DNA of 64,000 bases, taken from contig JAHCIT010000010.1 of assembly GCA_026129095.1 (NCBI GenBank), forward strand, positions 62,001 to 126,000, in the 5' to 3' direction. The translations under genes and the position numbers were made by a program. Under the pieces are notes generated by a model. It did no database searches. It was given only the letters and a program-made list of their open reading frames with translations, and had not been told where the DNA came from. Source of the DNA: Deltaproteobacteria bacterium (GTDB lineage Bacteria > JAGRBM01 > JAHCIT01). This document shows, piece by piece, positions 8,612 through 39,259 of the stretch. Numbering within the stretch: the stretch's first letter is position 1; every line of letters starts with the position of its first letter.

Positions 8612-9691
8612 GTGGTTATCCTCTGCCCCTCCTGCCGCGCCAAGCAGAAGGTCGATGTGAATTCACTCGTGGATGATGGCCTTGTCCGTTGTTCCGAGTG
8701 TTTTAACGTCTTCGTTGTTTCGCTGGAAAACCTGAAGGAGTTGTGGCAGCGCAAACAGGGGCAGGCTGGCGAGGATGCCCGGCTCGCCCGGTTTGAGCGC
8801 GCTGCAGTGGGCGATTATCTGCCCCCGGCACGCCGCCGGGCTCTCAGTGAGGCCCGTTCACTCCAGGAATCTCCAGACGCAATTCTGGACCGAACGGGTT
8901 TCGATGAGAGGTCGCAGGAACCCGACATCGGTGCGGCGACGATCCTGGGGCAGATCGTGAGCGAACCTGACGCCGTGGCGGCCCGGAAAACCGGTGCAAA
9001 GTCGTGGGGAACGCTCGTTGTGATGGACAGCGGCGGAGGGCAGGGCCGTGCGGTTCAGCTCCGGGCATCACCTTTTGTGATCGGTCGTGAAGGATGTGAC
9101 CTGAACCTGCGGGACATCGAGATCAGCCGCCGTCATCTGGAACTGCTCTGGCGGGACGAGCCATTCGCACGCGACCTCGGTTCAACCAACGGTTCGTTTC
9201 TGAACGGGAAACGGATCGGCGAAGTGCAGCTCCGGCATCAGGATCAGATCGAACTGGGACGGTCCCGGATGCTTTTCCTGGCCTCGGAGCCGGTCCGGAT
9301 TGCACCCGTACCGGCTGGGGACTTGCCGGTATCGGAGCTGACGCTCTCGCTGAGCCGGCTCCGGCCAGTGAAAGCGGCCGCACAGGGGGACACCCCGGTC
9401 TGTGCCGGACTTGATGTGATTGAGGGTCCGGATACGGGACGTCACTACCGGTTTGAACAGGCGAGCCTCCTGATCGGGCGTGAAGCCCCCGACATACGGC
9501 TCTCCGACCGGCAGGTTTCCCGCAAGCACTGTCAGGTCGAGCTGCTGTCGCGGGACCAGATATTCGTCAAGGACCTCGCCTCTCGCAACGGAACGGCGGT
9601 TAACGGGGTGATGGTGAAATATGCCCGCCTCGCACCGGGCGACCGGATAACGGTGGGCGATACGACACTTGTGTTCCTGATGGAGGGATGA
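8612..9691 (+). CDS. Zinc-ribbon + double FHA domain protein
   Basis: CPSC...CSEC ribbon. Two FHA signatures: IGR..SRRH..DLGSTNG and IGR..SRKH..DLASRNG. Confidence 0.9.
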   Translation: MVILCPSCRAKQKVDVNSLVDDGLVRCSECFNVFVVSLENLKELWQRKQGQAGEDARLARFERAAVGDYLPPARRRALSEARSLQESPDAILDRTGFDERSQEPDIGAATILGQIVSEPDAVAARKTGAKSWGTLVVMDSGGGQGRAVQLRASPFVIGREGCDLNLRDIEISRRHLELLWRDEPFARDLGSTNGSFLNGKRIGEVQLRHQDQIELGRSRMLFLASEPVRIAPVPAGDLPVSELTLSLSRLRPVKAAAQGDTPVCAGLDVIEGPDTGRHYRFEQASLLIGREAPDIRLSDRQVSRKHCQVELLSRDQIFVKDLASRNGTAVNGVMVKYARLAPGDRITVGDTTLVFLMEG

Positions 9692-9694
9692 CCA

Positions 9695-10204
9695 GTGACA
9701 ACAGCAAAATCGTTCCGTATCAGGGGGCTGGACCGCCGCCGCTCGGAAATACCGGTTGCCAGCGACCGGCGTCGGGGCCCCCGCCGCTTTGAGGATGACA
9801 ATTTAGACGCGGGGGAAGTCACCCGGAAACTGTCCGGTTCGCTGGATATCCTGGTGGATGCCATTGGGGAACGTCTCGGGAAAATACAGGGCCGGATCGG
9901 CCTGGTGCCCGATCTCGATGACGGCGAAGTGACACAGATACCGACCCGTAATCCTCATCTCCGTGAGGCAATGCACACACTGGCAGGAATTGAGGCCGAA
10001 GTGGTCGAATTGGTAAGGAAACTTCGTGCACGGGGACCGGTTCCGGGAGCCGACCGCAAGCGGATTCTGGCGCTGGTTCAGTCCATCATGGGCGTGGACC
10101 GGACACTGGCTGATCTCATGGCGCGGCGGCTGGGGCAGCCGGGGGACTCGCCGGAAATACGGGGGACCAGGTTTCTGGCCCGTGTGGAAAAACTCCTGGC
10201 CTAG
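9695..10204 (+). CDS. Hypothetical helical protein with repeated DxDxGEVT motifs
   Basis: GTG start 3 nt after the FHA gene stop, GGAGGG RBS, 169 aa. Confidence 0.65.
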   Translation: MTTAKSFRIRGLDRRRSEIPVASDRRRGPRRFEDDNLDAGEVTRKLSGSLDILVDAIGERLGKIQGRIGLVPDLDDGEVTQIPTRNPHLREAMHTLAGIEAEVVELVRKLRARGPVPGADRKRILALVQSIMGVDRTLADLMARRLGQPGDSPEIRGTRFLARVEKLLA

Positions 10205-12192
10205 GAACCCAACTGCCCGATCCTTTTCAGCAGTTCGCGGGCCCATGCGGAAGACGGGTTCGTCTGCATGGCGGCCTGGATCCAGATACGTGCAGTTTCC
10301 GGTTCGCCATTATCCAGGGCAATCTCTGCACGCATGAGGTTCGCGGCCTCGCTGCCCGGCTGGTCGCGGAGCACACCATCGATCATGTCCGTCACCTGCC
10401 GGCAAAGCAGCGGCGGCCTGCTTTCGCGGTTTTCCAGATACTGTGTCCAGGCCCAGAAGGCGTAAGACTCCAGTTCACTGGTATTCAGTTCAAAGGCTTT
10501 CTGGAAAGCCTCGCCCGCAGCCATGTACCGTTTCTGTTCCAGCAGGTCACGTCCCTTGGCGAACCATCGCTCGGTTTCATTTGCATGAACAGCGGGAGGC
10601 GGGTTGGTACGTCCCTCCAGTGCATGAAGTTCGGCCAGGTACTGCTTGCAGCGCTCAGGATCGAGAAGCGTGTCCCGGGCCAGCTGCACCCGGGCGAATG
10701 CTTCTTCGGCTTCCTGCCGGGCCTCGGGCTCGATATCCCGCGGGAGGCTGAACGGCGGGTATTTGGATGCTTCGCGCTGATAGGCTGCCGATATTTCCAC
10801 TTCCCGTGAACTGGCGCTCACGCCTAGCACGTCGAAAAGGTTTTTCTTCATCACGTCCACAAAGCGGCTGTGTATGCTGGCGGCAAGCTTCGATTTGACC
10901 GGGGCTTTCGCAGACTCGGCTGGCCGCTGGTCCATCTGCTCCAGCTGGCTCTGGAAATCCTTGCGGAGTGTGGCCGTCTGGTCCCTGACCATCTGCTCAA
11001 GCCTTGCCTGCTCGGCCGCGACATGCCCTTCGGACCGGGGCGGAAGGGATGAACTGGTCTTGGCGGTGCCAGTGCGGTCGGGAATGTGGATTCTCAGGAC
11101 TCCCAGGAGGAGCAGCGCGTAAATGGACTGGAGTGCCGAGAGGAGGCGGTCCTTCCGGCGGTCCAGTATTTCGCCCAGCGTCAGTTTCCCGTCCACGGCG
11201 TCCAACGTCATTTTTTCCGCCGGCATCAGGGAGAGCCGGGAGATGACCGTATCGGATTTGTCCGCCTTCATGAGACGAAGGCTGGTCAGCCGTTTCAGTT
11301 CCGGAAGCAGGATGTCCGCCGTATAGAACCGGCGAATTCCGGTCAGCATGATATCATTGATGTCGTATTCGAATACTTCGATATTACCGAATTCGGCATC
11401 GGTCCGGCGAAGTATGTAGTGTCCCGTGTTCCAGCCAAATGCGTTCAGTATTTTTTCCCGGATATGGGAGCGGAGGGCCTCGTAAAGATCATCTGAAGTA
11501 ATAACGCCCATTTCGATCAGCACATCGCCCTGCCGCCGGGCAGTGCGTGTCATGGTCTCGATGGACCGCTCGTAATCGGCATGGCTGATGAGCCCGATGG
11601 CAACGAGGTGCCGGCCAAGCACTTCACCGGAGATATTCGACGCGGCATACACCGGAAATCCGCCCATCATGTAGATCTTCCGGTAGTAGTCACCCTGCTC
11701 AAGCTGCAGAATGCCGGTTACGCGGTTCTGATGCACATAAGTGAGAAGTTTGCTGGTCGTCGTGCCGTTGATGATCCCGGCGATTTCGCCGCTCACTGTA
11801 CCGGGTTTTTCCGTCTTTACGCCGCCGCCAATAAGGCCCGACACAGTGGAGAGCAGTTCGTCGGTTGGAAATGGCTTGGTGAGATATCCCGATATCCGGT
11901 AGCGTTCGATGGCGTGGGTCTTTTCGCCGGGAGACTTGAACAGACCCGTGGTCATCAGGACTGGAACCGTTTTTCCTTTCTCTGTCATCCGGATGAGCTG
12001 GACCAGTTCGGCACCGGTCATGACCGGCAGGATGACATCGACGATGAGAAGATCGAATTTCTCCGCCTCGAACAGGCTCTGCGCCGTGCGTCCATCGGCG
12101 GCCGTCTTGACCTCGTAGCCTACCCCGGAAAGGGCCTGGCTCACCGTCTCAACATGAGTGGAGTCGTCATCGGCGATCAGGATGCGTTTCAA
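10201..12192 (-). CDS. Response regulator with DUF4388-like, J-like and TPR domains
   Basis: REC (ILIADDD, LLIVDVILP, YLTKP), VTGILQLE..RKIYMMGGFPVYAASN, J-like NLFDVLGV..EISAAYQR, C-terminal TPR-like helices. Confidence 0.85.
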   Translation of the reverse strand: MKRILIADDDSTHVETVSQALSGVGYEVKTAADGRTAQSLFEAEKFDLLIVDVILPVMTGAELVQLIRMTEKGKTVPVLMTTGLFKSPGEKTHAIERYRISGYLTKPFPTDELLSTVSGLIGGGVKTEKPGTVSGEIAGIINGTTTSKLLTYVHQNRVTGILQLEQGDYYRKIYMMGGFPVYAASNISGEVLGRHLVAIGLISHADYERSIETMTRTARRQGDVLIEMGVITSDDLYEALRSHIREKILNAFGWNTGHYILRRTDAEFGNIEVFEYDINDIMLTGIRRFYTADILLPELKRLTSLRLMKADKSDTVISRLSLMPAEKMTLDAVDGKLTLGEILDRRKDRLLSALQSIYALLLLGVLRIHIPDRTGTAKTSSSLPPRSEGHVAAEQARLEQMVRDQTATLRKDFQSQLEQMDQRPAESAKAPVKSKLAASIHSRFVDVMKKNLFDVLGVSASSREVEISAAYQREASKYPPFSLPRDIEPEARQEAEEAFARVQLARDTLLDPERCKQYLAELHALEGRTNPPPAVHANETERWFAKGRDLLEQKRYMAAGEAFQKAFELNTSELESYAFWAWTQYLENRESRPPLLCRQVTDMIDGVLRDQPGSEAANLMRAEIALDNGEPETARIWIQAAMQTNPSSAWARELLKRIGQLGS

Positions 12193-13284: not shown

Positions 13285-14000
13285 ACGTATTGCAGGCAAT
13301 CGAGGCGCGCCACAGTGTCCGGGCATTTGCGAAGCAGCCGGTTGATCCGGCACTGATCTGGAAAATCCTCGAGGCTGGCCGGAAGGCCCCGTCGTGGTCG
13401 AATTCCCAGCCCTGGGAGTTTGCCGTTATCGCCGGTGAACCGCTGAATGCACTCCGCAAGGAGATGTACGAAACCGGTCGGCGTGGGGTTCCGCGCAATC
13501 CGGATATCCCGCATCCCAAGACCTTTCCCGACCGGCACCAGAACCGCCGCCGGCTGAACGCGAAGATGCTCTTTTCGGCGCTGAATATCCCACGCGAGGA
13601 CAGTGCACAGCGCGAGGAGTTCAACCTGTCGATGCTGAGGTTCTTTGACGCGCCGGTGGGAATAATTCTCTTGATGGATTCGCAACTGGATGGAACCTGG
13701 TCGGTGCTCGACATGGGTTGCTGCCTGCAGAACATCATGCTGGCGGCGGTTGAACTGGGACTCGGCACCTGTGCCGAGGCGTCGATTACCGCCTATCCGG
13801 ATGTGGTGAGAAAGCATTTGCACATGGGCAAGGAAAAACGCGTTATGTGCGGGCTCGCGCTTGGCCACCCGGAGCGGGGGACAGTGCTGGGTGACTTCCG
13901 GAGCATCCGTGTGGCGCTCGACGAGATTTCCTACTGGATCGGAATTGATCCGCCGCTGCGCGGCGGCGAGCACGAGCCGGGTTCAGGGACGGGAATCTAG
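13281..14000 (+). CDS. Nitroreductase family flavoprotein
   Basis: RHSVRAF, APSWSNSQPW, LAAVELGLGTC. ATGA overlap with the BASS gene. Confidence 0.92.
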   Translation: MNVLQAIEARHSVRAFAKQPVDPALIWKILEAGRKAPSWSNSQPWEFAVIAGEPLNALRKEMYETGRRGVPRNPDIPHPKTFPDRHQNRRRLNAKMLFSALNIPREDSAQREEFNLSMLRFFDAPVGIILLMDSQLDGTWSVLDMGCCLQNIMLAAVELGLGTCAEASITAYPDVVRKHLHMGKEKRVMCGLALGHPERGTVLGDFRSIRVALDEISYWIGIDPPLRGGEHEPGSGTGI

Positions 14001-14072
14001 AGTCCGTTTTGTAAGCACCCTTGGTTCGGGATTGCCGGGTTAAGGAAGCCTTTGTGAACACCCCGGCCAGGC

Positions 14073-14309
14073 TTACTCCGTCGATTTGGGATGCCCGAAC
14101 GGATGGACGGCCCGGTCCAGATCTGGCGGCATTGGTTCTGGCTGAGAAAGCGGGCGGCTGAGCCGTTCTTGCCGTTCTGCTGCCGTTTCCGGCACACTAG
14201 GGTTGGAAACAAGAATCACGCCGATGGTGGCGATGGTCAGCACGGCCGCGAGGGCGAGCGTGATCCAGAGAGGCGTTCGGTTTGCCGGGGTTTCGTGCCG
14301 GTTCTTCAC
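14073..14309 (-). CDS. Possible small single-TM protein
   Basis: GTG start, TM segment LWITLALAAVLTIATIGVILV. Overlaps head-to-head with the next gene's predicted start, so uncertain. Confidence 0.35.
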   Translation of the reverse strand: MKNRHETPANRTPLWITLALAAVLTIATIGVILVSNPSVPETAAERQERLSRPLSQPEPMPPDLDRAVHPFGHPKSTE

Positions 14310-15628
14310 GGCTGCGGAGGTTAGCAGGTCTGTGTGCGGCTGTCGCTTTGACGGCAGGCCCTGGTGCAACCCATGCGAAATCCGTTCCTGACGCCATGGA
14401 AGCCGGTGAAGGGCCGGGCGATAAGGCCTACGAGCAAACACCGGAGCGCCCGGAAAGTAACGAAAAGCCGGTAGACGATTTTCTCGATTCTGAATGGTTC
14501 CCTCTCAACTGGCCCGCAATGGGTTTCGAAAGTGCTGCCCGGCCGGTTATCTGGACCGTGGAATTCATTGACCGGTACCGGATCCACCGTCGGGTTTATG
14601 ATCTTCTCACCAATGACGAACGAACGGCGGCGATTTACCCGTTCGCCAGTTTTGGTAATGAAGGGCTGAACCGGGTCGGCATCCGGGCGTTTCACCGGAA
14701 CCTTTTCAATGAACGCAAGGTGGCTCGGATTTCCATGGACTGGGACATGGACCGTTCAGTCACCCAGCGGTTTCGCTATACCGATCCCTCGGTGCTTGGA
14801 TCCAGCTTTTATGCGGGCATGGATCAGAAGTTCGGGCGTTACATGGACACCCGCTATTACGGGCTGGGCAACCAGAGCCTGAAGGCGAACCGGTATTCGT
14901 TCCGGTCGGATTACGAATCAGTGACGATTCAGTCTGGCTATGGTCAAGGACGTAACCTGGGCGTGGGTATCGCCCTGTCCGTTGACCATTCGGAGATCCG
15001 GCCATCAGTGCCCGCCACGCCAGGGACAACAGCTGGAGTGACACCGGAGCAGCTTGGGGTAATTCATGACAAGACGCTGCTGGGAGTTGCCGGTGTGGCC
15101 AGATTCGACCGGCGTCGTTGGCGGGCAGAGACACTGGAGGGGTACCGGCTGCTGGCGACGCTTGGTATGTTTGCCTCTCCGGGCGGAAACCCCAGCCGGT
15201 TTCTGAAATGGTCGGTGGATGCGGCCTGGTTCCAGCCGCTGATTCACCGGGGGCGTGTCTTGGTGCTCAGGGCATGGATTGAATCCGTACATCCTCTGAG
15301 TGGAGGCGAGGTTGGCTTGTTCGACCTGCCTGCAGCCGGTGGGGACAATTTCCTCCGGGGGTTTCCCACCGGCCGGTTCCGTGACCGGACGGCGATGGTA
15401 TTTTCGCAGGAGTACCGGTTTCCGGTCTGGCGATTTATGGATTTTACGGTGTTTGCTGATGAGGGCCGGGTCATGTCCGGCCCCGGTTCGATCTCCTTTG
15501 CAGACATGCATCTGTCGTGGGGTGCAAGCATCCGGTCCCGGCGGCGGGATCTGTTCCTCTGGCGGTTCGTTTTTGCACAGAGCAAGGAAGGGATTCGGCT
15601 GAATCTTTCCTTCAATCAGGAGTTTTAG
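14282..15628 (+). CDS. Omp85 (BamA/TamA-family) outer-membrane beta-barrel, apparently without POTRA domains
   Basis: Signal peptide ending ATHA, LRGFPTGRFRDR lid motif, C-terminal beta-signal LNLSFNQEF. Confidence 0.85.
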   Translation: MPGFRAGSSRLRRLAGLCAAVALTAGPGATHAKSVPDAMEAGEGPGDKAYEQTPERPESNEKPVDDFLDSEWFPLNWPAMGFESAARPVIWTVEFIDRYRIHRRVYDLLTNDERTAAIYPFASFGNEGLNRVGIRAFHRNLFNERKVARISMDWDMDRSVTQRFRYTDPSVLGSSFYAGMDQKFGRYMDTRYYGLGNQSLKANRYSFRSDYESVTIQSGYGQGRNLGVGIALSVDHSEIRPSVPATPGTTAGVTPEQLGVIHDKTLLGVAGVARFDRRRWRAETLEGYRLLATLGMFASPGGNPSRFLKWSVDAAWFQPLIHRGRVLVLRAWIESVHPLSGGEVGLFDLPAAGGDNFLRGFPTGRFRDRTAMVFSQEYRFPVWRFMDFTVFADEGRVMSGPGSISFADMHLSWGASIRSRRRDLFLWRFVFAQSKEGIRLNLSFNQEF

Positions 15629-17590
15629 GTGAATCGGGCGATCCAGCTAGTGACAGTTGTGACGGCGGGGCTTTTGGGCATGGCCCCGCCGGTATTTGCT
15701 GGGCATCCTGCACCGGAAATCGGCTGGGTGGCGTCAGTGCCAGGGCTGACTACTGGCGGCTGTTCCCGGCGCGAGATTGGCCGCCGCACCGACATGATCG
15801 ATCAGACGGCTATCAGGCCGGTGCGATCGTTGCTCCGGCCAGTCGAGTGGATGCGGGCGGTGGGGTACTGGACGGCACTCCTCGATGACCGGGAGGCGAG
15901 CGACCTGACGCCATACGGTGAAGTGGAAGATTCGGCTTATTTCATCAATCGCATGGGCAAGCGGCAGCTCACGGCAGACGAAATTGTTCGCGGCCCGCTC
16001 GCGGTGGCTTCCCTCAAAGGGCCGTGGACAGTGGTTCAGGTAGATGAACGCTCGGTTCCGCGCCTGACCGCGATGGATCGCAATGGCAGCCGGTGGGAAC
16101 TGCTCTTCGACTCACGCGCCTATCCCGAGATGGCTACAGGAGCCTATCTGGTCTCATCGCGCCTGCTGTGGGCAGCCGGTTATTTCGTCCGTCCATCGGC
16201 ACTGGTACGCATCCAGACATCCGAATTCAGGACAGCGAAGGAGATCGTCTGGATCGACAAGTATGGCGAGGTGCGCGATCACGGACCTCCGCTGGAGGAG
16301 GTGTTTGCCCGTCTGTCCCGCAACCCGGATGGTTCGCTCCGGGCTGTAGCCGTCTTTGTTCCACCGGGTGAAGTCTGCGGGCCGTGGCCCTTTTCGGGGC
16401 AACGGAAGGACGACCCGAACGGAATTGTGATGAACCAGCACCGCAGATCGCTCCGGGGGCTCCGGTGGTTCGCGGCATGGCTGAATATGATCGGATCCAG
16501 CCAGCATTTCACCAGTTCCCGCTGGGTCAGATCCGATGACGATGGCAATGGACTTCTGATCCATTTCCTTGAACGGCTTGAACAGTCATTGGGATCAAAC
16601 GAAAGCCGTCCCAGATCTCCACGAGATGGGCACGGATACTACTTCAATCCCTGGGCTGTACTCAGGCAGATCGGCACGCTGGGTTTTTACCAGGAGGATT
16701 TCGAGAATGACCGGGCATCCGGAGTTCGCGGGATCGGCCATTTCGAATCGCTCAGGTTCCGCCCGGAAACCTGGCGCGGGTACTTTCCCAATCCGGCATT
16801 CCAGAGCGCCACGGCACTCGACGGTTACTGGGCCGCAAAAATCCTGTCATCCTTTGGCACACGGGAAATAGAGGCGGCTGTCGAGGCTGCGGGATATACC
16901 GATCCGGCCGCCCAGCGCGATCTGGTCCGGATACTTTCCGAGCGGCGTGACAAGATCACCGCCTGGCTGTTCCGTAATTCGCTGGCCGTGGATAATTTCC
17001 GGGTTTCAAGATCACCCGAAGGAAACTGGGACTTCCTGTTTGACGACCTTGCCGTGGACCGGCGGCTGATCCGGCCGTCGGAAGCCAGTTACCGGTTCCT
17101 GCTTCGGCCGCGAGGTTTTGTCGAGGCCGATCTTGCGTCGCTGGGCGGATTGATCAACCGGTTTGCTGACAACGGGTCTTCCCGTCGTATTCTTATTGAT
17201 TTCGAACTGGCCCGTCGCATCCGGTCCTATCCGCCAATCCGGTTTTCACAGGAGCCTGTGCGATGGGAAATGATCCTGGTAGGCCGGTACGGGCGGGTGG
17301 CCCCGTTTTCGCAAGCCGGAAATGTACCGGCGCCAGACCCGGAAGGAGCAGCTGCCCGTATGGTTGAATTTGTCGAACAAATTGAAGTGCCATCACCCGA
17401 ACAGACGCTGCAAGCGATGGGCGGCCGGGTCCGGCTGAGTTACGAGCGCACGGTCAACGAAACGCTGATGCCGGGGCTTCCCCGCGAATTCACGCCGTCA
17501 CTAGCCGGGTCACGTCCGCCGCCGGTACGGATACTGCTGGCCTATGAACCAGAAACCGACCAGCTGGTTATCGAGGGATGGGAACGGTGA
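15629..17590 (+). CDS. Exported hypothetical protein, probable atypical-kinase-like fold with degenerate active site
   Basis: Starts immediately after the Omp85 stop. Signal peptide ending VFA. Blocks YPEMATGA..SRLLWAAGY and DDPN..HRRSLRGLRWFAAWLN. Confidence 0.7.
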   Translation: MNRAIQLVTVVTAGLLGMAPPVFAGHPAPEIGWVASVPGLTTGGCSRREIGRRTDMIDQTAIRPVRSLLRPVEWMRAVGYWTALLDDREASDLTPYGEVEDSAYFINRMGKRQLTADEIVRGPLAVASLKGPWTVVQVDERSVPRLTAMDRNGSRWELLFDSRAYPEMATGAYLVSSRLLWAAGYFVRPSALVRIQTSEFRTAKEIVWIDKYGEVRDHGPPLEEVFARLSRNPDGSLRAVAVFVPPGEVCGPWPFSGQRKDDPNGIVMNQHRRSLRGLRWFAAWLNMIGSSQHFTSSRWVRSDDDGNGLLIHFLERLEQSLGSNESRPRSPRDGHGYYFNPWAVLRQIGTLGFYQEDFENDRASGVRGIGHFESLRFRPETWRGYFPNPAFQSATALDGYWAAKILSSFGTREIEAAVEAAGYTDPAAQRDLVRILSERRDKITAWLFRNSLAVDNFRVSRSPEGNWDFLFDDLAVDRRLIRPSEASYRFLLRPRGFVEADLASLGGLINRFADNGSSRRILIDFELARRIRSYPPIRFSQEPVRWEMILVGRYGRVAPFSQAGNVPAPDPEGAAARMVEFVEQIEVPSPEQTLQAMGGRVRLSYERTVNETLMPGLPREFTPSLAGSRPPPVRILLAYEPETDQLVIEGWER

Positions 17591-17613
17591 AAGGTCCGGT
17601 CGTGAGCCTGTAA

Positions 17614-17811
17614 TCACTGCTCGTCGGTGCCGCCATCCGTTTCCCGGCGGCGCATGGTATACAAATAGTATCCGGAAAGGCCGAGGATGAGCCACGGCAT
17701 GGCCAGCATCATGTACAGGAAAAACTCCGCGCCGGGATTTCCCCCCTGCTGGTAACTGCAGGTGGGGCATCCAATGAGAAAATCCGCCAACGGTGGAGCA
17801 ACGCCAGTCAT
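17614..17811 (-). CDS. Small membrane protein with CPTC motif
   Basis: CPTC followed by one TM and an RRR stop-transfer. Alternative TTG start at 17859 overlaps the upstream stop. Confidence 0.5.
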   Translation of the reverse strand: MTGVAPPLADFLIGCPTCSYQQGGNPGAEFFLYMMLAMPWLILGLSGYYLYTMRRRETDGGTDEQ

Positions 17812-17855
17812 GTCAGCGCCGATGGTGCTGGATGCCGCCGGGGTTGTCAAAAGAT

Positions 17856-19490
17856 TCAATCCACTTGCTGCTGTTCCAGCATGGCCATCGCCTGTGCCAG
17901 GGATTGCTTGGCCCGGGCCTTGGAGTCCTCATAAATCTTTGACAGGTTTTCGTACTGGTTGCGGAGTTCCTCGTACTGGGCAACCAGTTCGTTGTACTGG
18001 TTCGTAACCGCCTCGGCCTGCTTGACGTATTCTTCCATGGCCTGCTGCGACTGCTGCTGGATTTCCTGGATGTACTGTTCCTGCTGCGCCTGGTAATCGG
18101 CGATCTGGGACTGCATCTGTTCTTCGTACTGTTTGGCCAGATCCTCCATCTGTTTCTGGTAGCTGGCCTCGATCTCCTGGAACTGCTGCTGGTAATGGCT
18201 GTCGGCGTTCTGTGCGGCGGCCTGAAGTTCGGCATTCTGCTGCTCCAGGGCCTGCGCGTGGGCTTCCAGTTCGGGAAGCCGCTGCTGGAACTGGACGATC
18301 TGGCTGGCTGCTTCCTCTTCCTGGGCCTGCATTTCCTCGCGAAGCTGTTCGGTTTCGTCCCGGAGCCGGCTTTCGAGTCCCTGGGCGATTTCAACCTGTT
18401 TCTGGAGTTCGGCGTTGAAACTTTCTAGCCGCTGCTCCAGTTCCGCTACCTCGGCGTTCTTGGCTTCCAGTGCCTGTGCGGCCTCTGTGTAGGCCTCTGC
18501 CTGGGCAGAGAGTTCAGCGACGTGTGCCTGCGCCTGTTCCAGTTCGGCAGCGCGGCTTTCAGCCAGCTCGTGGTATTCATTCACCTGGGCCTGAGCCTGC
18601 TCGAATGATTTTTCCCACTCTGCAAGGCTTTGCCTGAGCGTTTCGGCCTCGGCTGCCTGTGCCTGCAACTCCTCAAGTGTCTTGTCATATTCGGCGATGC
18701 GGGCTTCGGCTTCGGCGAGCTTCTGGTTGAGTTCGGCAACCTGTTGCTCAAGCAACTGGCGGTGTTCATCGGCCCCGCCGGCGGCAGCCGCCAGTTCGGC
18801 TTCGAGCTGGCTGATACGTTCCTGTGCATGGACGAGCTCGGTAGCCGTCGCCTGGCTGGCGGCATTCCCTTGGGCCGATTCCAGTTCCTGGACCTGCTTG
18901 GTGAGCTTCCGGTTGGCTTCCTCGAGCTGGAGGATTTTTGCCGATGCCTGACGGCCCGCTTCGCCGGACTGGAGCGCCTTGGCGGTTTCCTCCTTGGCGT
19001 CCTCTACTTCTTTCTTCAGCCGGTCGATTTCCTTGGCCCGTAGCTCCAGTTCCTTGTCAGTGGCGTGTTCCTCGAACATTGCGTCGATCTTCGAGGCGAC
19101 TTCATCCATGTCGATGCCGCCTTCGTCGAATCCGACAAGGTTCTCGATCGACCGGACAACATCGGCTGTATCAATCGGTTTCCGGAGGTAGTCCTGCGCG
19201 GCGACTTTCAGCTTCTTGTGACGTTCGAAATCCTTGTCGGTCGCTTCCTTCGAGACGATGATGATCGGCAGGCTGCTCTGTTCCTTGATTTTCTTGCAGA
19301 TGACGTATCCGGAGGCGTCAGGGAGTTCGAGCGAGAGCAGCAGCAGGTCCGGCATCTTCCCGGCGATACGCTCTGTCGTCTCCTTGCCGGAGGCGACGAT
19401 ATCCGCCTGCACCTTTCGTTTGGAAAGTGCGTCCCTGATAGCCTCGGCAAAAGGCTGGTCGGCATCTGCGATCAAAATAGTTCGGGGCAT
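17856..19490 (-). CDS. Pseudo-receiver + long coiled-coil protein (FrzS/AglZ-like architecture)
   Basis: REC fold with Ser at the phospho-Asp position (LLLLSLELP), then about 400 aa of E/Q/A-rich heptads. Confidence 0.8.
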   Translation of the reverse strand: MPRTILIADADQPFAEAIRDALSKRKVQADIVASGKETTERIAGKMPDLLLLSLELPDASGYVICKKIKEQSSLPIIIVSKEATDKDFERHKKLKVAAQDYLRKPIDTADVVRSIENLVGFDEGGIDMDEVASKIDAMFEEHATDKELELRAKEIDRLKKEVEDAKEETAKALQSGEAGRQASAKILQLEEANRKLTKQVQELESAQGNAASQATATELVHAQERISQLEAELAAAAGGADEHRQLLEQQVAELNQKLAEAEARIAEYDKTLEELQAQAAEAETLRQSLAEWEKSFEQAQAQVNEYHELAESRAAELEQAQAHVAELSAQAEAYTEAAQALEAKNAEVAELEQRLESFNAELQKQVEIAQGLESRLRDETEQLREEMQAQEEEAASQIVQFQQRLPELEAHAQALEQQNAELQAAAQNADSHYQQQFQEIEASYQKQMEDLAKQYEEQMQSQIADYQAQQEQYIQEIQQQSQQAMEEYVKQAEAVTNQYNELVAQYEELRNQYENLSKIYEDSKARAKQSLAQAMAMLEQQQVD

Positions 19491-21566: not shown

Positions 21567-23003
21567 ATGATGTCGGCATTTATCCCGAGCGGCCGCTCCG
21601 GCCTGCTGTTGGCGGTCTGGGGCCTTGTTTCGGCGGGTGGCTATGCGGTCGCCCGATGGGCCCACGCCTTCCCGGGCAACGACGGGTATGCGGCACTGGC
21701 CCGTGCTGATGGCGGCGCCTGGTGGCTTGGCGCGGCGAGCTATAAGCCGGTGGAACTAGTGCTCTCCTGGCTGGCCGTCCGGATAGGGCCGGACCCTGCC
21801 ATCATGTGGACCCTTTGGGGTGCGGCACATATGGGGCTGCTGGCCGTGATGGCGATACGTCTTGCGGCGGCCTGGTTCGAGGAATATCCGGCATCCGGGT
21901 GGCTGGCAGCAGTTCTCGTGGTGGTCAATCCCCATGCCTGGGAACTGTGTTTTTGCATGAACTCGGTGGCGACGCTTTCTGCCGCAGTACTGTGGTTCGG
22001 GGCGGCCGCCACGGGCGGCCGGCGCCGGGAAGTGGTGGCCGCGCTTGTGCTGATGGCACTGTCGCGGATCGACGGGCTAGCGGTGGCGCTTGCCGTGGGA
22101 CCGGCATGGGCACTGGCAGCGCCTGGGCCGGGTGAAAGCGGAGACGAGAGCGGAAAGGACCAGCGCTTCCGGATGGCCGGTTCAGCGGCCGCACTGGGGG
22201 CATCGCTCGCCATCTGGCTGCTGCTGGGCCGGATCCTGAACGGACAGTGGCTCGGACTCATCGCCAACATGGAAAGCTACTCGCGGGCTGCGAGCCCCCA
22301 CCGGTTCGGCATGGTGGAGCTTCTCGTCTGGATGCGCGGCGCAATCTACACGATGACGAGCGACGGGCTCGTTCTTCTGGCGGCGGGCGGCGCCATCGCG
22401 CTTGTTTCGACCGTCCACCGCAAGCTCCTCTGGCCGGGCCTTGCCCTGGTGGCGCATCTCGGCGTGATCTTTCTGCTGGGGATCACGGGCAGTCCGTTGT
22501 TCCACCGGTTCATGCTGCCGGAAGTCCTGCTCGCTGTGTGCCTCTCGGCCGGCGGGCTGTTCTGGATATCGGCGCGTATCCCGGCGAAGCCAGAGTGGCG
22601 GATATCCGCTTTCGTCGTTCTGTTTGCTGCCGGGGTCGGCGGCTATCTCGGTGATCTCCGGGAGCTTGTGCCGGTGCGGGAGTCGAACCGCGCCGTGCAG
22701 TCGGACAGCCGCGTCGCCGGGGACTGCCTCGAACGGGGCGTTGCGGACTACCCCGGCAGCGCTGCCGTTGTCCCTGACCGTCTCCACGGGCCGCTGCTCT
22801 GGCGATTCCGGCATGACCGGGTGAGGGGAGTCGCCTACTGGCGGGAGTTCGTTTCCCGTCAGCATGAAGACAGGCGTTCGCTGATTGTCCTCGGTTTTCG
22901 GGGCGGTCCTGACCTGCCCGGATGGCTCGGCAAGCCAGATGAAGTACGCCCATGCGGCGGAACCTTCTGGCTGAATCTGTACCTCGCTCCCGCTACTCCT
23001 TAG
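21567..23003 (+). CDS. Polytopic membrane protein, possibly GT-C (ArnT/PMT-like) glycosyltransferase
   Basis: About 11 TM segments. LSRIDG and HRFMLP resemble GT-C-type R-x-E/D-G and R-F/Y-x-x-P motifs. Soluble C-terminal tail. Confidence 0.5.
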   Translation: MMSAFIPSGRSGLLLAVWGLVSAGGYAVARWAHAFPGNDGYAALARADGGAWWLGAASYKPVELVLSWLAVRIGPDPAIMWTLWGAAHMGLLAVMAIRLAAAWFEEYPASGWLAAVLVVVNPHAWELCFCMNSVATLSAAVLWFGAAATGGRRREVVAALVLMALSRIDGLAVALAVGPAWALAAPGPGESGDESGKDQRFRMAGSAAALGASLAIWLLLGRILNGQWLGLIANMESYSRAASPHRFGMVELLVWMRGAIYTMTSDGLVLLAAGGAIALVSTVHRKLLWPGLALVAHLGVIFLLGITGSPLFHRFMLPEVLLAVCLSAGGLFWISARIPAKPEWRISAFVVLFAAGVGGYLGDLRELVPVRESNRAVQSDSRVAGDCLERGVADYPGSAAVVPDRLHGPLLWRFRHDRVRGVAYWREFVSRQHEDRRSLIVLGFRGGPDLPGWLGKPDEVRPCGGTFWLNLYLAPATP

Positions 23004-23355
23004 ACTCGCCCTTGATCTCCAGGCTCGGATCGCGGGTATCGGCGATGGGTATGTCGAGAATCTCCTGCCGTCCGTCGGCGTGCTCCAGCGTCCATCGCGT
23101 CCGGGTGTGCAGCACCTTGGCACGCAAGGCCATCCCCTCGTCGGAGATTTCGAGCGGGAGCTTGAGGTCGATCGCCCCCACCGGGCAGTGCTTCACGCAG
23201 GCGGCGCAGTCCCAGCAGTCGGGCAGCCGTTCCAGGATGGCCGCCTTGCGGTCCGGTTTCATGAACAGCAGGTCGCCGGGGCAGACCATGACGCACATGG
23301 CTTCCTCAGCCTTCCCGCAGCCATTGCAGATATCCTCGTCGATGAAGATGCTCAC
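22993..23355 (-). CDS. aprB: Adenylylsulfate reductase beta subunit (2x[4Fe-4S] ferredoxin)
   Basis: CNGC..C..VCPGDL and CWDCAACVKHCP. GTGA overlap with aprA. Confidence 0.8.
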   Translation of the reverse strand: MSIFIDEDICNGCGKAEEAMCVMVCPGDLLFMKPDRKAAILERLPDCWDCAACVKHCPVGAIDLKLPLEISDEGMALRAKVLHTRTRWTLEHADGRQEILDIPIADTRDPSLEIKGESKE

Positions 23356-25100
23356 GGCCGGCCGCTCTCCAGAGGGCGAGTCACGGCCCGGACCTCGTTA
23401 CTCTTGGTGTCATAAACCGTATTGACGAACTTCAACCAGTTCGCGTCGTCACGTTCGGGATAGTCCGTTCGCGTCTGGTAGCAGGGCCAGCGGGTTTCCT
23501 TTCGGCAGTCCAGGTGCTCGACCAGTGCACGGGCGACGAGAATCCGGTCAATCACTTCGTGGGCGAGCATGAGGTCGTGCATCTGCGGTGCCGCCATGCG
23601 ATCCACCACGCCTTCCAGCTTCCTCAGCGCATGGCGGGCGATGTCGAGCCGGTCGGCCCTGAGTTCGTATTCCTTCGAGATACCGCCCGCATATTCATCC
23701 ATCAGCTTCTGGAGGCGGAGTTCCACCTCTTCAGGGAGCACGTAGCCGCTCACCGGGCCCCGGTATTTCTCGCGCCGGACGAAGGGTTTGTAGACGCGCT
23801 CCTGTTCCCGGCGGGCGTTTTCTTCCAGTTCATCGCGGTCCGCTTTGCCGCTGTTCCCGGTGTCCGGGCGGCTCAGGATGTCATCAACGGCGATCATCGC
23901 CTCGGCCCAGCCGCCGGAGGCGTACTTCTTGGGCGCGCCGCCCGCCACGTCGCCGATAGCATGGAGGCCCGGAATGGTCGTCCGGCGGTCTGTGCCGATC
24001 CAGTAGCCCGACATTCCGTGCCCGCCCTGCACGTAGGGTTCCGACCCGCAGATGCGGACGGGGTTCAGCTTGGGGTCGATCCGCTTGTCGCCCCACATGA
24101 GCAGAATTGAAGGGGACATGTCGAGATATGAGGTCTTGATCTTCACCATGTCCGCCTCGGTGAGGTGGCTGGTGTCGAGGTAGCAGGGGCCCCGCCCGGC
24201 GCGGTCTTCCATGAGCGTCGCCAGGAGGCGGTGCGCGGTGGACATCTTCTGGCCGCCCCAGCCGGAGTAGTATTTTTCCAGGTAGTTCTCGCCAAGACGG
24301 TTCACCTGCTTGCACTTGAATCCCTGCGCCAGCACTCCTGTCGGCGACATGAAATCCCGCACCCGGAGGGCGATGAACCTCATCTCGAACGAGGTCATTT
24401 CAGCTCCGGCCCTGAGCCCCATCGCCAGTCCCGCACCCGTGTTGAAAGGCGAATACCAGACCTTGTGCCGGGCGAGGCCCGTGTTGGTCGGCAGATACAG
24501 CCCGCCGCAGCCGCCGGTGGCGATGATGGTATGGGGAGCCCGGATTCGCACGAACGCGCCCGTGCGGACATTGAAACCGAGGACGCCCGCGACACGCCCT
24601 CCGGCCATCCAGAAGTTTGTCGCCGCAACACGGTTTATTACCCGGGCGCCCGACTGGGCGACGGCGCGAGCCATGATCGGCTTGATGCGCTCGCCGCGAA
24701 TCTTGATCGAACCCCGGCCGCGGGGGGTGTAGCTGCCATCCGGTTCCTTGAGGATGGGCAGGCCCCAGCTTTCGACCTTTTTCACCGCCTCATCGAGGCG
24801 CTTTGCCAGCGAAAGCACCAGGTCCTCGCGGATTACACCAAAGTTGTCGTTGGCGACCCACCGGGTAAACGATTCAGGCGTCTCGCCCTTGTTGACATAG
24901 GCATTGATGGAACTGATTCCGGCGCACAGGCATCCGCTCCGGATGATGTTGGCCTTTTCGACGACGACGACATCGAGCGAAGGGTCAAGGCTCCGGGCAT
25001 GCGCTGCCGCGAAAGAGCCTGCCGCTCCTCCCCCGATAATAAGAAGGCCGGCCTCGATATCCTCGACCGCGGGCGTGAATGTGGAAGGGTCTGACGTCAT
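23352..25100 (-). CDS. aprA: Adenylylsulfate reductase alpha subunit (FAD)
   Basis: IIGGGAAG, EKANIIRSGCL, WYSPFNTG, EPYVQGGH, RKETRWP..RTDYPERDD..WLKFVN. Confidence 0.9.
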   Translation of the reverse strand: MTSDPSTFTPAVEDIEAGLLIIGGGAAGSFAAAHARSLDPSLDVVVVEKANIIRSGCLCAGISSINAYVNKGETPESFTRWVANDNFGVIREDLVLSLAKRLDEAVKKVESWGLPILKEPDGSYTPRGRGSIKIRGERIKPIMARAVAQSGARVINRVAATNFWMAGGRVAGVLGFNVRTGAFVRIRAPHTIIATGGCGGLYLPTNTGLARHKVWYSPFNTGAGLAMGLRAGAEMTSFEMRFIALRVRDFMSPTGVLAQGFKCKQVNRLGENYLEKYYSGWGGQKMSTAHRLLATLMEDRAGRGPCYLDTSHLTEADMVKIKTSYLDMSPSILLMWGDKRIDPKLNPVRICGSEPYVQGGHGMSGYWIGTDRRTTIPGLHAIGDVAGGAPKKYASGGWAEAMIAVDDILSRPDTGNSGKADRDELEENARREQERVYKPFVRREKYRGPVSGYVLPEEVELRLQKLMDEYAGGISKEYELRADRLDIARHALRKLEGVVDRMAAPQMHDLMLAHEVIDRILVARALVEHLDCRKETRWPCYQTRTDYPERDDANWLKFVNTVYDTKSNEVRAVTRPLESGRP

Positions 25101-25109
25101 GGGAAGGCT

Positions 25110-38938: not shown

Positions 38939-39259
38939 TCAGCCGCTGTTTTTGCCTACCAGCTTGAGGGGTTGCCGCGTCCGGACAGGGATTCCCCGGT
39001 CCTTGAGGGCATCCTTGAGCAGACTGCCGGCAGCAAGAATGGCCTCACGCCGGTTTTTCTGCCGGGATGCCTCGTAGGGATCCCGCCGGGGCCGGGAGAG
39101 GGTTTCCTCCTCCTGCGGCAGCGGCAGGTTCTGCCAGGCCATCGTGCTCGCAACGCCGTTGGGCGGAGCGGCCGGTTCCAGCCGGGCGCCGAGCGATGAG
39201 GCCGGTGCACGGAACGGAACATCGAGTTGGTTGGGTTTTACAGGGTGGTTGAGTTTCAT
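38939..39259 (-). CDS. Small hypothetical protein translationally coupled to the giant surface protein
   Basis: ATGA overlap, GAGAAAGGA RBS, 106 aa. Confidence 0.55.
   Translation of the reverse strand: MKLNHPVKPNQLDVPFRAPASSLGARLEPAAPPNGVASTMAWQNLPLPQEEETLSRPRRDPYEASRQKNRREAILAAGSLLKDALKDRGIPVRTRQPLKLVGKNSG

What the first reader, a model, noticed from the sequence alone, without database searches (positions are those of the whole stretch)
14282..17590. POTRA-less Omp85 barrel coupled to an exported, apparently catalytically dead kinase-fold protein
Seen: two abutting genes (0-nt gap), both with signal peptides. The first has the Omp85 lid motif and beta-signal but is too short for POTRA arms. 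The second has blocks that I recall, unverified, from an uncharacterised family with an atypical HipA/PI4K-like layout: LKFD..PE.ATGAE, WLNHxDxxxxN, YLIDFG. In this copy every catalytic position is substituted: ELLFD (16097), ATGAY, WLNMIGSSQHF (16478), FLERLEQSLGS (16565). The structural blocks remain and the ORF is intact. Inference: a barrel + periplasmic/surface pseudokinase module acting as scaffold or lipid/ligand binder, possibly a two-partner export or lipid-insertion device.
Basis: partly seen in the sequence, partly recalled or inferred. Interest (0 to 1): 0.78.

Follow-up and report, generated by a model that had tools for sequence, protein, structure and literature searches.

The report
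Outer-membrane barrel with dead kinase partner
Two abutting genes encode a short outer-membrane barrel and an exported kinase-shaped protein that has lost its catalytic residues, a rare offshoot of a widespread, undescribed gene pair whose intact relatives often sit beside a nucleotide transporter.

Summary
Gene 1 (14282-15628) is a POTRA-less, 16-strand Omp85 barrel. Its closest solved structures are TamA and BamA. Gene 2 (15629-17590) follows with a 0-nt gap, and its ribosome-binding site lies in the last codons of gene 1.

Gene 2 has no Pfam or NCBIfam match, but its model resembles the atypical kinases Fam20, CtkA and HipT. It belongs to a large uncharacterised family (1844 representatives). 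Most members keep kinase-type motifs. The window protein and its three known close relatives have replaced them. The window protein has lost 8 of 8 core residues, yet keeps 33 of 41 highly conserved positions.

The barrel-partner pairing is conserved: 70 of 80 related loci from more than ten phyla carry a short Omp85 gene directly upstream. In 28 of 80 loci a TLC-type nucleotide (NTP/NDP) transporter homologue lies nearby. This suggests that intact members use nucleotide in the periplasm. The window has no such transporter gene.

Best reading: a barrel-docked pseudokinase kept for a non-catalytic role. The function is inferred, not shown. Adjacency in the closest relatives could not be checked.

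The parts
14282..15628 (+). Gene 1: POTRA-less (noNterm-type) Omp85-family outer-membrane barrel, 448 aa
   Evidence: ORF. Pfam PF01103 E 1.7e-11. AF2 model pLDDT 81.8. Foldseek TamA 4c00 E 1.3e-12 and BamA barrels.
14282..14377 (+). Putative Sec signal peptide of the barrel (residues 1-32, ...GATHA|KS)
   Evidence: Read by eye from the translation. Modelled as helix 9-24. A stored gene call starts 22 residues later (P0267, 426 aa) and would lack the signal peptide.
14510..14608 (+). Two N-terminal helices (residues 77-98 and 101-109) in place of POTRA domains; preceded by the invariant P74
   Evidence: AF2 secondary structure. P74 is invariant in alignment A2. No POTRA Pfam hit at E<=1.
14627..15613 (+). 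16-strand beta-barrel (residues 116-444)
   Evidence: AF2 strand list. Foldseek matches to TamA and BamA barrels.
15353..15364 (+). Lid-loop (L6) motif LRGF, residues 358-361
   Evidence: R359 invariant and G360 nearly invariant in 34 aligned barrels.
15618..15622 (+). Shine-Dalgarno-like AGGAG, 6 nt before the GTG of gene 2 and inside the last codons of gene 1 (translational coupling)
   Evidence: Sequence read directly.
15629..17590 (+). Gene 2: exported kinase-fold protein without catalytic residues (pseudokinase), 653 aa
   Evidence: ORF. No Pfam or NCBIfam hit. AF2 model pLDDT 79.9, pTM 0.81. Foldseek Fam20, CtkA and HipT.
15629..15700 (+). Putative Sec signal peptide (residues 1-24, ...PPVFA|GH); no lipobox
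   Evidence: Read by eye. Helix 2-15 in the model.
15890..16978 (+). Kinase-like core (about residues 88-450), the part shared with the whole family
   Evidence: Best stretches of the family matches cover about 88-496. pLDDT is mostly >85 here.
16043..16066 (+). Degenerate Gly-rich-loop-like element: family KxxG(V/I)(T/S)PGF, here DERSVPR-L
   Evidence: K139 225/262, G142 239/262 and the second G 226/262 in other members; replaced or deleted here.
16097..16111 (+). ELLFD: position of the family's conserved Lys (KFD) is Leu159
   Evidence: K in 235 of 262 other members; L/I/I in the three full-length subclade members.
16409..16435 (+). DDPNGIVMN: family DDPNDxxxH with D265 (260/262) and H269 (262/262) replaced by G and N
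   Evidence: Column counts.
16478..16510 (+). WLNMIGSSQHF: former catalytic loop (family WLNHxDxKxxN): H287M, D289G, N294F; then D297S
   Evidence: H 184/262, D 242/262, N 237/262, D297 244/262 in other members.
16565..16597 (+). FLERLEQSLGS: former DFG block (family YLIDFGSTLGS): D316R, F317L, G318E
   Evidence: D 254/262, F 233/262, G 191/262 in other members.
16988..17587 (+). C-terminal beta-sandwich (Ig/FN3-like) domain with a subclade-specific, poorly modelled insert (about residues 555-630)
   Evidence: Strands 454-554 and 633-652, pLDDT <50 at 558-598 and 604-625. Foldseek partial matches to cytokine-receptor and monobody FN3 domains. The insert is seen only in P0001-P0003.

Best explanation
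This is a two-gene envelope module. Gene 1 makes a 16-strand Omp85 barrel that has two short helices instead of POTRA domains. Gene 2, translationally coupled to it, makes a Sec-exported protein with an atypical kinase fold (Fam20/HipA-like) and a C-terminal Ig-like domain. I infer that this protein docks on the barrel at the periplasmic side and supplies the periplasmic module that the barrel lacks. In most lineages the partner keeps kinase-type motifs and is probably a nucleotide-dependent phosphotransferase. In about a third of related loci a TLC-type NTP/NDP exchanger gene is linked, and I infer that it supplies nucleotide to the periplasm. The window's copy belongs to a rare, long-branched subclade that has lost the Gly-rich loop, the Lys, the Glu, the DDPND-H block, the catalytic loop and the DFG Asp, but keeps the structural residues. 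It is therefore a pseudokinase retained under selection for the non-catalytic part of the job: binding the barrel and/or a ligand, as a scaffold or regulator. Shown: the two folds, the loss of motifs, the conservation of the pairing and the transporter linkage in relatives. Inferred: physical docking, periplasmic location and the non-catalytic role.
For: Barrel: Pfam Omp85; the AF2 model shows no POTRA and 16 strands; Foldseek gives TamA and BamA at E 1e-12. Partner fold: Foldseek gives Fam20, Fam20C and Fam20A (a pseudokinase), CtkA, HipT and SidJ, best E 1.5e-4. The nearest named ESM-Atlas clusters are Fam20C, CotH, HipA_2 and PI3_PI4 at 0.79-0.81, which are leads only. The only Pfam family that recurs below threshold is HipA_2, in 4 of 34 members, best E 0.054. 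Family size: 1844 representatives at E<=1e-3. Motif loss: 8 of 8 core residues are replaced here, whereas 170 of 262 other members keep all 8 and none loses more than 5. The window protein keeps 33 of 41 positions that are >=90% conserved. The gene is not decaying: the ORF is intact, there are relatives at 56-63% identity (P0002, P0003, and the fragment P0121), and the subclade is monophyletic (SH-aLRT 100) with a stem of 1.03 and tips of 0.3 against a family median of 0.6. Pairing: 70 of 80 related loci have a same-strand Omp85 homologue ending within 600 nt of the partner's start. The upstream barrels are mostly about 390-515 aa, which is POTRA-less size. The four loci with >=2 core residues lost still have the barrel. 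Coupling: AGGAG lies 6 nt before the GTG, inside gene 1. Nucleotide link: 28 of 80 loci hold a TLC-like gene within +-7 kb, and 19 of 20 tested neighbour ORFs pass Pfam TLC PF03219. Docking: complex prediction gave 'weak support'. The median score was 0.60 (0.63, 0.58, 0.60) and the best of 3 controls was 0.00. The mark was reached by 116 of 157 solved complexes and 2 of 215 mismatched pairs. A score of 0.60 or under was seen in only 18 of those 157 solved complexes and in both mismatches that passed. The runs agree in >=94% of contacts and the partner's pLDDT is >=72. My own alignments were used, so these counts hold only roughly.
Against: No experiment or contact map supports docking. The complex score is in the band the tool itself calls more often wrong than right unless the guess was likely beforehand, and it returned no interface. 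The kinase-fold assignment rests on moderate Foldseek scores (TM 0.25 by query, 0.41 by target, rmsd 10 A) and on motif logic; the PDB sequence profile search found nothing. Adjacency of barrel and partner in the subclade's other members (P0002, P0003, P0121 and the barrel orthologues P0268-P0270) could not be checked, because the locus scan's pattern matched only intact-motif relatives. Their stored contig lengths do not coincide. Three residues newly fixed in the subclade (N269, L317, E318) and the conserved E315 lie in the old site, so a changed chemistry is not excluded. The link between the transporter and catalytic integrity is only a trend: TLC-linked loci split 19 intact, 6 one loss, 0 with >=2 losses; unlinked loci split 37, 7 and 4. 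Related loci share ancestry. The TLC homologues are distant from characterised exchangers (43-83 bits against a cut-off of 387 for TIGR00769). Neither their substrate nor their transport direction is known.
Confidence: 0.6

Rival explanations
1. Two-partner-type export. The barrel is a dedicated translocator that moves the kinase-fold protein (or its lipoprotein versions) to the cell surface or the medium, where it acts on external targets. The window's dead copy would then be a surface-exposed binding protein.
For: There is strict gene adjacency, with the barrel gene first. The partner has a signal peptide and a C-terminal Ig-like domain. A crude pattern count finds lipobox-like N-termini in 59 of 225 full-length members, including false positives such as the window protein itself. 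The barrel's N-terminal helices could act as a plug like helix H1 of FhaC; that comparison is recalled, not tested.
Against: Known TpsB translocators use two POTRA domains to recognise a TPS domain. The barrel has none and the partner has no TPS-like beta-helix. Linkage to an inner-membrane TLC-type nucleotide exchanger in 28 of 80 loci fits activity in the periplasm better than outside the cell. A folded 60-kDa kinase domain is a poor substrate for a 16-strand barrel; that is inference.
Confidence: 0.2
2. Fam20A-like regulator. The dead copy's role is to bind and activate, or localise, an intact paralogue encoded elsewhere in the same genome. The barrel serves only as an anchor.
For: Fam20A, a pseudokinase, is among the structural matches. 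Its activation of Fam20C is described in the abstract of PMC4421857 as shown in the search listing. Partial loss of motifs recurs in the family: 30 of 262 members lack 2-5 core residues.
Against: No intact paralogue lies in the 64-kb window (tblastn with P0004 and P0032 found only gene 2 itself). The rest of the genome is unavailable. The dead copy has its own co-diverged barrel (60-67% identity to its orthologues, 17-26% to the other aligned barrels). That points to a self-contained module.
Confidence: 0.1
3. Not dead but repurposed. The old active site has been rebuilt for other chemistry or for tight ligand binding (for example a hydrolase, a phospho-ligand receptor or a metal site), using residues conserved in the subclade.
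For: Within the subclade N269, L317 and E318 are identical in all three full-length members and E315 replaces a hydrophobic residue. D261, D262, R272, R273, R276 and H312 of the family are kept.
Against: Only 3 of 11 former motif positions are identical among the three subclade members, against 45% three-way identity overall (283 of 624). The positions vary freely (D289 is G/E/E, N294 is F/Q/N, D316 is R/G/G), as expected for relaxed constraint. The Gly-rich-loop element is deleted or replaced.
Confidence: 0.08
4. A decaying relic or a chance neighbour: gene 2 is a non-functional remnant, and its place beside the barrel has no meaning.
For: All catalytic motifs are lost. No family annotation exists.
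Against: The 653-codon ORF is intact, with GC3 of 0.66 like its neighbours, and it is translationally coupled. 33 of 41 highly conserved positions are kept. There are full-length relatives at 56-57% identity and the subclade's tip branches are short. The pairing recurs in 70 of 80 loci across more than ten phyla.
Confidence: 0.02

Closest known systems
noNterm Omp85 proteins (Heinz & Lithgow 2014, PMC4104836; Leptospira LIC12252/12254/12258, PMC11358297)
   Same: An Omp85 barrel with no POTRA or other N-terminal domain, of unknown function, found in diverse environmental bacteria. I read one passage of PMC4104836 and the abstract and sections 8 and 11 of PMC11358297.
   Different: Those papers report varying neighbourhoods, and a DUF1566 lipoprotein neighbour in Leptospira. 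They report no kinase-fold partner. The window barrel matched no Pfam family other than PF01103 at E<=1, so the DUF5982 marker of the leptospiral subset was not seen. It scores 45 bits against a cut-off of 200 for NCBIfam NF047779.
Fam20 secretory-pathway kinases and the pseudokinase Fam20A
   Same: They are the best structural matches. They are an atypical kinase fold working outside the cytosol, with a naturally inactive family member. They depend on nucleotide brought into a non-cytosolic compartment; that last point is from my own knowledge.
   Different: There is no detectable sequence similarity: no Pfam Fam20C hit. They are eukaryotic Golgi proteins with no barrel partner. Fam20A still binds ATP (recalled), whereas here the whole nucleotide-binding set is gone.
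HipA-like kinases, including the secreted Helicobacter CtkA and HipT
   Same: They are structural matches (3akk E 5e-3, 7ab4 E 2e-2). There are weak HipA_2 and HipA_C Pfam hits in 5 of 34 family members.
   Different: All sequence hits are below threshold. HipA proteins are cytoplasmic toxins with antitoxin partners. No such partner is present here, and the protein is exported.
Two-partner secretion (TpsB/TpsA, e.g. FhaC/FHA) and Omp85 fusions such as PlpD (patatin-Omp85)
   Same: An Omp85-superfamily barrel is genetically tied to one specific passenger or enzyme module.
   Different: TpsB has two POTRA domains and TpsA has a TPS domain. Neither is present. In PlpD the enzyme is fused to the barrel, whereas here it is a separate gene. 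These system descriptions are recalled, not tested.
TLC/AAA NTP/NDP exchangers (Pfam PF03219, TIGR00769)
   Same: Neighbour genes in 28 of 80 related loci belong to this family by the Pfam cut-off.
   Different: They are far below the TIGR00769 cut-off. Several are fused to HEAT repeats. They occur in free-living lineages rather than in the intracellular parasites and plastids where the family is characterised (recalled). No homologue was found in the window itself.

Membership tests
Omp85 superfamily (PF01103) | BamA/TamA-type 16-strand beta-barrel | tested here: met
   Pfam E 1.7e-11, 44.6 bits against a cut-off of 24. The AF2 model has 16 strands at residues 116-444. Foldseek gives TamA 4c00 at E 1.3e-12, and 124 PDB matches at E<=1e-3.
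Omp85 superfamily (PF01103) | Lid-loop (L6) (V/I/L)RG(Y/F) motif and a C-terminal beta-signal ending in an aromatic residue | tested here: met
   LRGF at residues 358-361, with R359 invariant in 34 barrels; the C-terminus is ...LSFNQEF. The wording of the motif definition is recalled.
noNterm subclass of Omp85 | No POTRA or other folded N-terminal domain | tested here: met
   There is no POTRA Pfam hit at E<=1. The model shows a disordered stretch at residues 26-74, helices at 77-98 and 101-109, and then the barrel.
NCBIfam NF047779 'Omp85 family outer membrane protein' | Score at or above the curated cut-off (200 bits) | tested here: not met
   45 bits, partial match over residues 292-448.
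Protein kinase-like (PKL) fold superfamily | Bilobal kinase-like fold | tested here: met
   The top 11 listed Foldseek PDB rows are all Fam20-family kinases, followed by CtkA, SidJ and HipT. Best E 1.5e-4, probability 1.00, TM 0.41 by target. The strength is moderate. The PDB sequence profile search found no hit.
Active PKL kinases | Nucleotide-binding Gly-rich loop, beta3 Lys and alphaC Glu | tested here: not met
   The window has DERSVPR-L, L159 and Y173. The family has KxxGxxPGF (K 225, G 239 and G 226 of 262), K159 (235/262) and E/D173 (217/262).
Active PKL kinases | Catalytic loop HxDxxxxN and metal-binding DFG Asp | tested here: not met
   M287, G289, F294 and R316 in the window. The family has H 184, D 242, N 237 and D 254 of 262.
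Pfam kinase families Fam20C, HipA_C/HipA_2, PI3_PI4_kinase, CotH | Sequence match above the gathering score | tested here: not met
   No Pfam hit for the window protein at E<=10. HipA_2 matched 4 of 34 relatives, best E 0.054.
Two-partner secretion (TpsB/TpsA) | Two POTRA domains in the barrel protein and an N-terminal TPS domain in the passenger | tested here: not met
   No POTRA. The partner has a kinase-like fold plus an Ig-like domain.
Fam20A-type pseudokinase that regulates an active paralogue | An active paralogue in the same genome | not testable with these tools
   None in the 64-kb window. The rest of the genome is not available.
The uncharacterised exported kinase-fold family itself (no database name) | Full-length homology, an N-terminal signal peptide and a short Omp85 gene directly upstream | tested here: met
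   Relatives at 30-37% identity over about residues 88-496, at E down to 1e-73. The window protein keeps 33 of 41 conserved positions. The barrel is upstream with a 0-nt gap. 70 of 80 loci show the same arrangement.

The most novel reading that the evidence does not exclude
The wider family is a previously unrecognised periplasmic phosphorylation system of diderm bacteria. It would consist of a POTRA-less Omp85 barrel, an exported Fam20/HipA-like kinase docked to it, and in many lineages a TLC-type NTP/NDP exchanger that runs 'in reverse' to deliver ATP to the periplasm. That would be a bacterial counterpart of the eukaryotic secretory-pathway kinases with their lumenal ATP supply. The window's copy would be its Fam20A-like pseudokinase offshoot, showing that the barrel-bound, non-catalytic function can stand alone.
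Probability: 0.25. Interest if true: 0.9.

Novelty: new variant of a known kind. Interest (0 to 1): 0.72.

Why it matters
POTRA-less Omp85 barrels are widespread and have no assigned function. Here one large group of them gains a fixed genetic partner, an exported kinase-fold protein, which gives a concrete handle for experiments.

The periplasm is generally held to lack ATP (textbook knowledge, not tested here). A kinase-type enzyme with a signal peptide, repeatedly linked to a nucleotide-exchanger homologue across more than ten phyla, makes that question directly testable.

The window's copy is a natural separation-of-function allele: every kinase-type residue is gone, while the fold, the barrel partner and the translational coupling are kept. 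It can show what the module does without catalysis.

Tried and rejected
- **Family libraries:** Pfam and NCBIfam scans of gene 2 found no family. A profile search of alignment A1 against PDB sequences found 0 hits at E<=10.
- **Cluster members:** Source names and accessions of the closest relatives stay unknown.
- **Locus scan:** None of the 80 loci belongs to the subclade, so adjacency there is unchecked.
- **Contig-length matching:** The values were 36103 and 6391 against 170729, 17900 and 126048, which is uninformative.
- **Promoter and terminator scan of 13900-17950:** counts were at or below shuffled expectation, and nothing usable was found.
- **Link to TolC (31610-33568) and MlaC (33565-34200):** rejected. 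They are about 14 kb away, separated by unrelated genes on both strands.
- **Lipoprotein status of the window protein:** rejected. The only Cys matched by my crude pattern (C45) lies well after the signal peptide's hydrophobic core.
- **Histidine-kinase (16 loci) and TPR (11 loci) neighbour clusters:** set aside as generic families joined by single linkage, on mixed sides and strands.
- **Literature searches:** searches found no paper on an Omp85 plus kinase-like gene pair. One search was badly specified (min_terms 1) and gave nothing useful. One search failed on syntax and was resent. A 2026 bioRxiv preprint on new kinase-like families (10.64898/2026.09.18.752743, passages read) describes other families. 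Its supplements are closed and might list this one.

Full report
**Observation.**
- The TAG stop of gene 1 (15626-15628) abuts the GTG start of gene 2.
- A Shine-Dalgarno-like AGGAG (15618-15622) lies 6 nt upstream of that GTG, inside the last codons of gene 1. The genes therefore look translationally coupled.
- Both proteins begin with what I read as Sec signal peptides. No predictor was run.

**The barrel.**
- Gene 1 matches Pfam Omp85 (E 1.7e-11).
- An AlphaFold2 model built on 34 aligned homologues has pLDDT 81.8. It shows a signal helix, a disordered linker, two helices (77-98, 101-109) and then 16 strands (116-444). There is no beta-alpha-alpha-beta-beta POTRA unit.
- Foldseek places it with the TamA and BamA barrels (E 1.3e-12).
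- The lid-loop LRGF motif (R359 invariant) and the terminal ...NQEF are present.
- It therefore belongs to the 'noNterm' class of Omp85 proteins. That class is recognised in the literature but has no known function (PMC4104836, passage; PMC11358297, abstract and sections 8 and 11).
- It falls short of NCBIfam NF047779, with 45 bits against a cut-off of 200.

**The partner.**
- Gene 2 has no Pfam or NCBIfam match.
- It does have many relatives. There were 181 hits in the word-indexed search, all unnamed or 'hypothetical'. The exhaustive search found 1844 50%-identity cluster representatives at E<=1e-3, of which 406 were at E<=1e-30.
- Typical members are 520-590 aa and share residues about 88-496 with the window protein at 30-37% identity.
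- The AlphaFold2 model (pLDDT 79.9, pTM 0.81) matches the Fam20 kinases best (5xom E 1.5e-4; Fam20C 4kqa; the pseudokinase Fam20A 5wrr). Next come H. pylori CtkA, HipT and SidJ. The C-terminal domain matches FN3-type beta-sandwiches.
- These scores are moderate: TM is 0.41 by target and 0.25 by query.
- Two independent but weak leads agree. The nearest named ESM-Atlas clusters are Fam20C, CotH, HipA_2 and PI3_PI4 (0.79-0.81). HipA_2 is the only Pfam family that recurs below threshold (4 of 34 members).
- A profile search against PDB sequences found nothing.

**The dead site.** I aligned all 266 family proteins fetched and counted residues at each motif position in the 262 outside the subclade.

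| Position | Count of 262 others |
|---|---|
| K159 | 235 |
| E/D173 | 217 |
| D265 | 260 |
| H269 | 262 |
| H287 | 184 |
| D289 | 242 |
| N294 | 237 |
| D297 | 244 |
| D316 | 254 |
| F317 | 233 |
| G318 | 191 |

- A Gly-rich-loop-like KxxG(V/I)(T/S)PGF element is also conserved in the others: K 225, G 239, G 226.
- The window protein has L, Y, G, N, M, G, F, S, R, L and E at the eleven positions in the table, and DERSVPR-L in place of the loop.
- For eight core residues, 170 of the 262 keep all, 62 lack one, 16 lack two, 14 lack three to five, and none lacks more.
- The window protein lacks all eight. P0002 also has none of the eight, though it carries a conservative E at 289. P0003 lacks seven and keeps N294.
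- Of 41 positions that are >=90% conserved in the others, the window protein keeps 33. The eight it lost are W104, G142 and six motif residues.
- This is the signature of a pseudoenzyme: the scaffold is kept and the chemistry is removed.
- Within the subclade only 3 of 11 former motif positions are identical in all three full-length members, against 45% three-way identity overall (283 of 624). The old site therefore looks relaxed rather than rebuilt. The conserved N269, E315 and E318 keep a repurposing scenario alive.

**Evolution.**
- I built a quick maximum-likelihood tree of 59 sequences: the three subclade members plus 56 drawn at random from the members of 500-620 aa.
- The subclade is monophyletic (SH-aLRT 100). 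Its stem of 1.03 changes per site is the longest inner branch. Its tips are 0.3, against a family median of 0.6.
- The root is at the midpoint only, and the deep branches are poorly supported.
- The barrel has co-diverged. It is 60-67% identical to three orthologues (P0268-P0270) and 17-26% identical to the other barrels in the alignment.
- Known subclade members are few: P0002, P0003 and the 302-aa fragment P0121.

**Is the pairing conserved?**
- By record title these come from Acidobacteriota, Latescibacterota, Zixiibacteriota, Krumholzibacteriota, Gemmatimonadota, KSB1, Calditrichaceae, Marinimicrobia, Eisenbacteria, Thermodesulfovibrionia, Cytophagia and others.
- In 70 of the 80 loci a same-strand homologue of the window barrel ends within 600 nt of the partner's estimated start.
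- The ten misses break down as follows:
  - two have no upstream DNA (L049, L064);
  - two are tandem duplications of the partner, with the barrel before the first copy (L036, L038);
  - two have the barrel 1.1-1.4 kb away (L033, L040);
  - four have none (L031, L035, L042, L072).
- The upstream barrels are mostly about 390-515 aa. My ORF starts there are the earliest possible ones, so they may be too long.
- The scan's search pattern contains residues that the dead subclade has lost. All 80 loci are therefore intact-type relatives, and pairing within the subclade rests on the window alone.

**An unexpected third gene.**
- I clustered the neighbour ORFs of the 74 paired loci. The largest cluster covers 19 loci, mostly directly downstream on the same strand.
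- 19 of 20 tested members pass Pfam's cut-off for the TLC ATP/ADP transporter family. Several are fused to HEAT repeats.
- A tblastn over the full +-7 kb flanks finds such a gene in 28 of 80 loci. It often abuts the partner gene (for example L006, L021, L034, L061, L068, L076, L079) or sits just before the barrel gene (L011, L078).
- By NCBIfam these are distant relatives of NTP/NDP exchangers: 43-83 bits against a cut-off of 387.
- PAP2 phosphatases (4 loci) and calcineurin-like phosphoesterases (3 loci) also recur.
- The window has no TLC homologue.
- Among 73 loci, the TLC-linked partners split 19 intact, 6 with one core loss and 0 with two or more. The unlinked partners split 37, 7 and 4. 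This is a trend in the expected direction, on numbers too small and too related to weigh.
- The four degenerate loci still have the barrel.

**Docking.**
- Complex prediction (barrel residues 71-448, partner residues 32-653, my own alignments) returned 'weak support'. The scores were 0.63, 0.58 and 0.60, and the best of three controls was 0.00.
- The mark was reached by 116 of 157 solved complexes and by 2 of 215 mismatched pairs. A score of 0.60 or below was seen in only 18 of those 157 solved complexes and in both of the mismatches that passed.
- The runs agree in >=94% of contacts, and the partner's pLDDT is >=72.
- No interface was given.
- With the strong synteny as a prior, I count this as mild support.

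**Window context.**
- The flanking genes are unrelated: an SBF symporter and a nitroreductase upstream on the same strand, and a response regulator with a long coiled coil downstream on the other strand.

**Mechanism.**
- I commit to a barrel-docked periplasmic partner. In most lineages it would be an active, nucleotide-using phosphotransferase. Here it would be a pseudokinase kept for binding or scaffolding (confidence 0.6).
- The rivals are export of the partner through or by the barrel (0.2), a Fam20A-like regulator of an unseen paralogue (0.1), a repurposed site (0.08) and a relic (0.02).

**Novelty and limits.**
- Seven literature searches found no description of this pair. The library lacks most subscription journals, and the supplements of preprints are closed.
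- Unchecked: the genomes of the subclade's other members, the model coordinates, and any experimental localisation or activity.

Noticed in passing
Related loci, e.g. L021:8666-10003, L068:8647-9981, L034:7073-8929, L079:8616-10070, L006:4744-7500 (HEAT fusion), L061:3623-6796 (HEAT + cNMP-binding fusion): TLC-type NTP/NDP transporter homologues lie beside the Omp85 + kinase-like pair in 28 of 80 loci across many phyla, often abutting it. This suggests a nucleotide supply for an exported enzyme.
   Followed up: partly
Family proteins P0150, P0175, P0185, P0231, P0233, P0234, P0235, P0265 and loci L012, L027, L069, L080: Other members have independently lost 2-5 of the 8 core residues (usually K159, E173, D289, N294), but all those listed keep D265 and H269. 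Partial pseudokinase states recur in the family, and the DDPND...H block may mark a second functional site.
   Followed up: partly
L009:4401-5345 (PAP2), L010:4087-5325 (calcineurin-like phosphoesterase): Phosphatase or phosphoesterase genes recur next to the module (4 and 3 loci). This hints at a phospho-lipid or phospho-sugar substrate.
   Followed up: no
Family N-termini (alignment A1, columns 88-95): Many intact members carry a conserved F-x-P-D-D-P motif right after the signal peptide (exact PDDP in 46 of 225 full-length members). About a quarter have lipobox-like N-termini by a crude pattern. The dead subclade lacks the motif and instead has a conserved Cys near residue 45.
   Followed up: no
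window 31610-33568 and 33565-34200 (+): A 652-aa TolC-like outer-membrane efflux protein gene overlaps by 4 nt with a MlaC-family lipid-binding protein gene. This is an unusual coupling, and it is not linked to the finding.
   Followed up: no
window 10201-12192 (-) and 17856-19490 (-): Two atypical response regulators flank the region: one is receiver + DUF4388 + DnaJ domain (663 aa), the other is a receiver followed by about 400 aa of Q/E/A-rich coiled coil (544 aa).
   Followed up: no
window 8612-9691 (+): A protein with two FHA domains after an N-terminal Cys-rich (zinc-ribbon-like) segment. FHA domains bind phosphothreonine, so cytoplasmic Ser/Thr phospho-signalling is present nearby, but it is separated from the module by four genes.
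   Followed up: no
window 22993-25652 (-): Sulfur-metabolism genes in a row: a 4Fe-4S ferredoxin-like protein, an FAD flavoprotein of the fumarate-reductase/AprA type, and APS kinase. There is also a TauE sulfite exporter fragment at 35-568.
   Followed up: no
window 3299-7252 (+) and 39256-44790 (-): Two giant probable surface proteins: a 1317-aa Kelch-repeat protein and an 1844-aa PKD/He_PIG Ig-repeat protein.
   Followed up: no
window 14282 vs 14348: The stored gene call for the barrel (P0267, 426 aa) starts 22 codons later than the TTG at 14282 and would remove the signal peptide. The longer ORF is the more plausible gene.
   Followed up: partly
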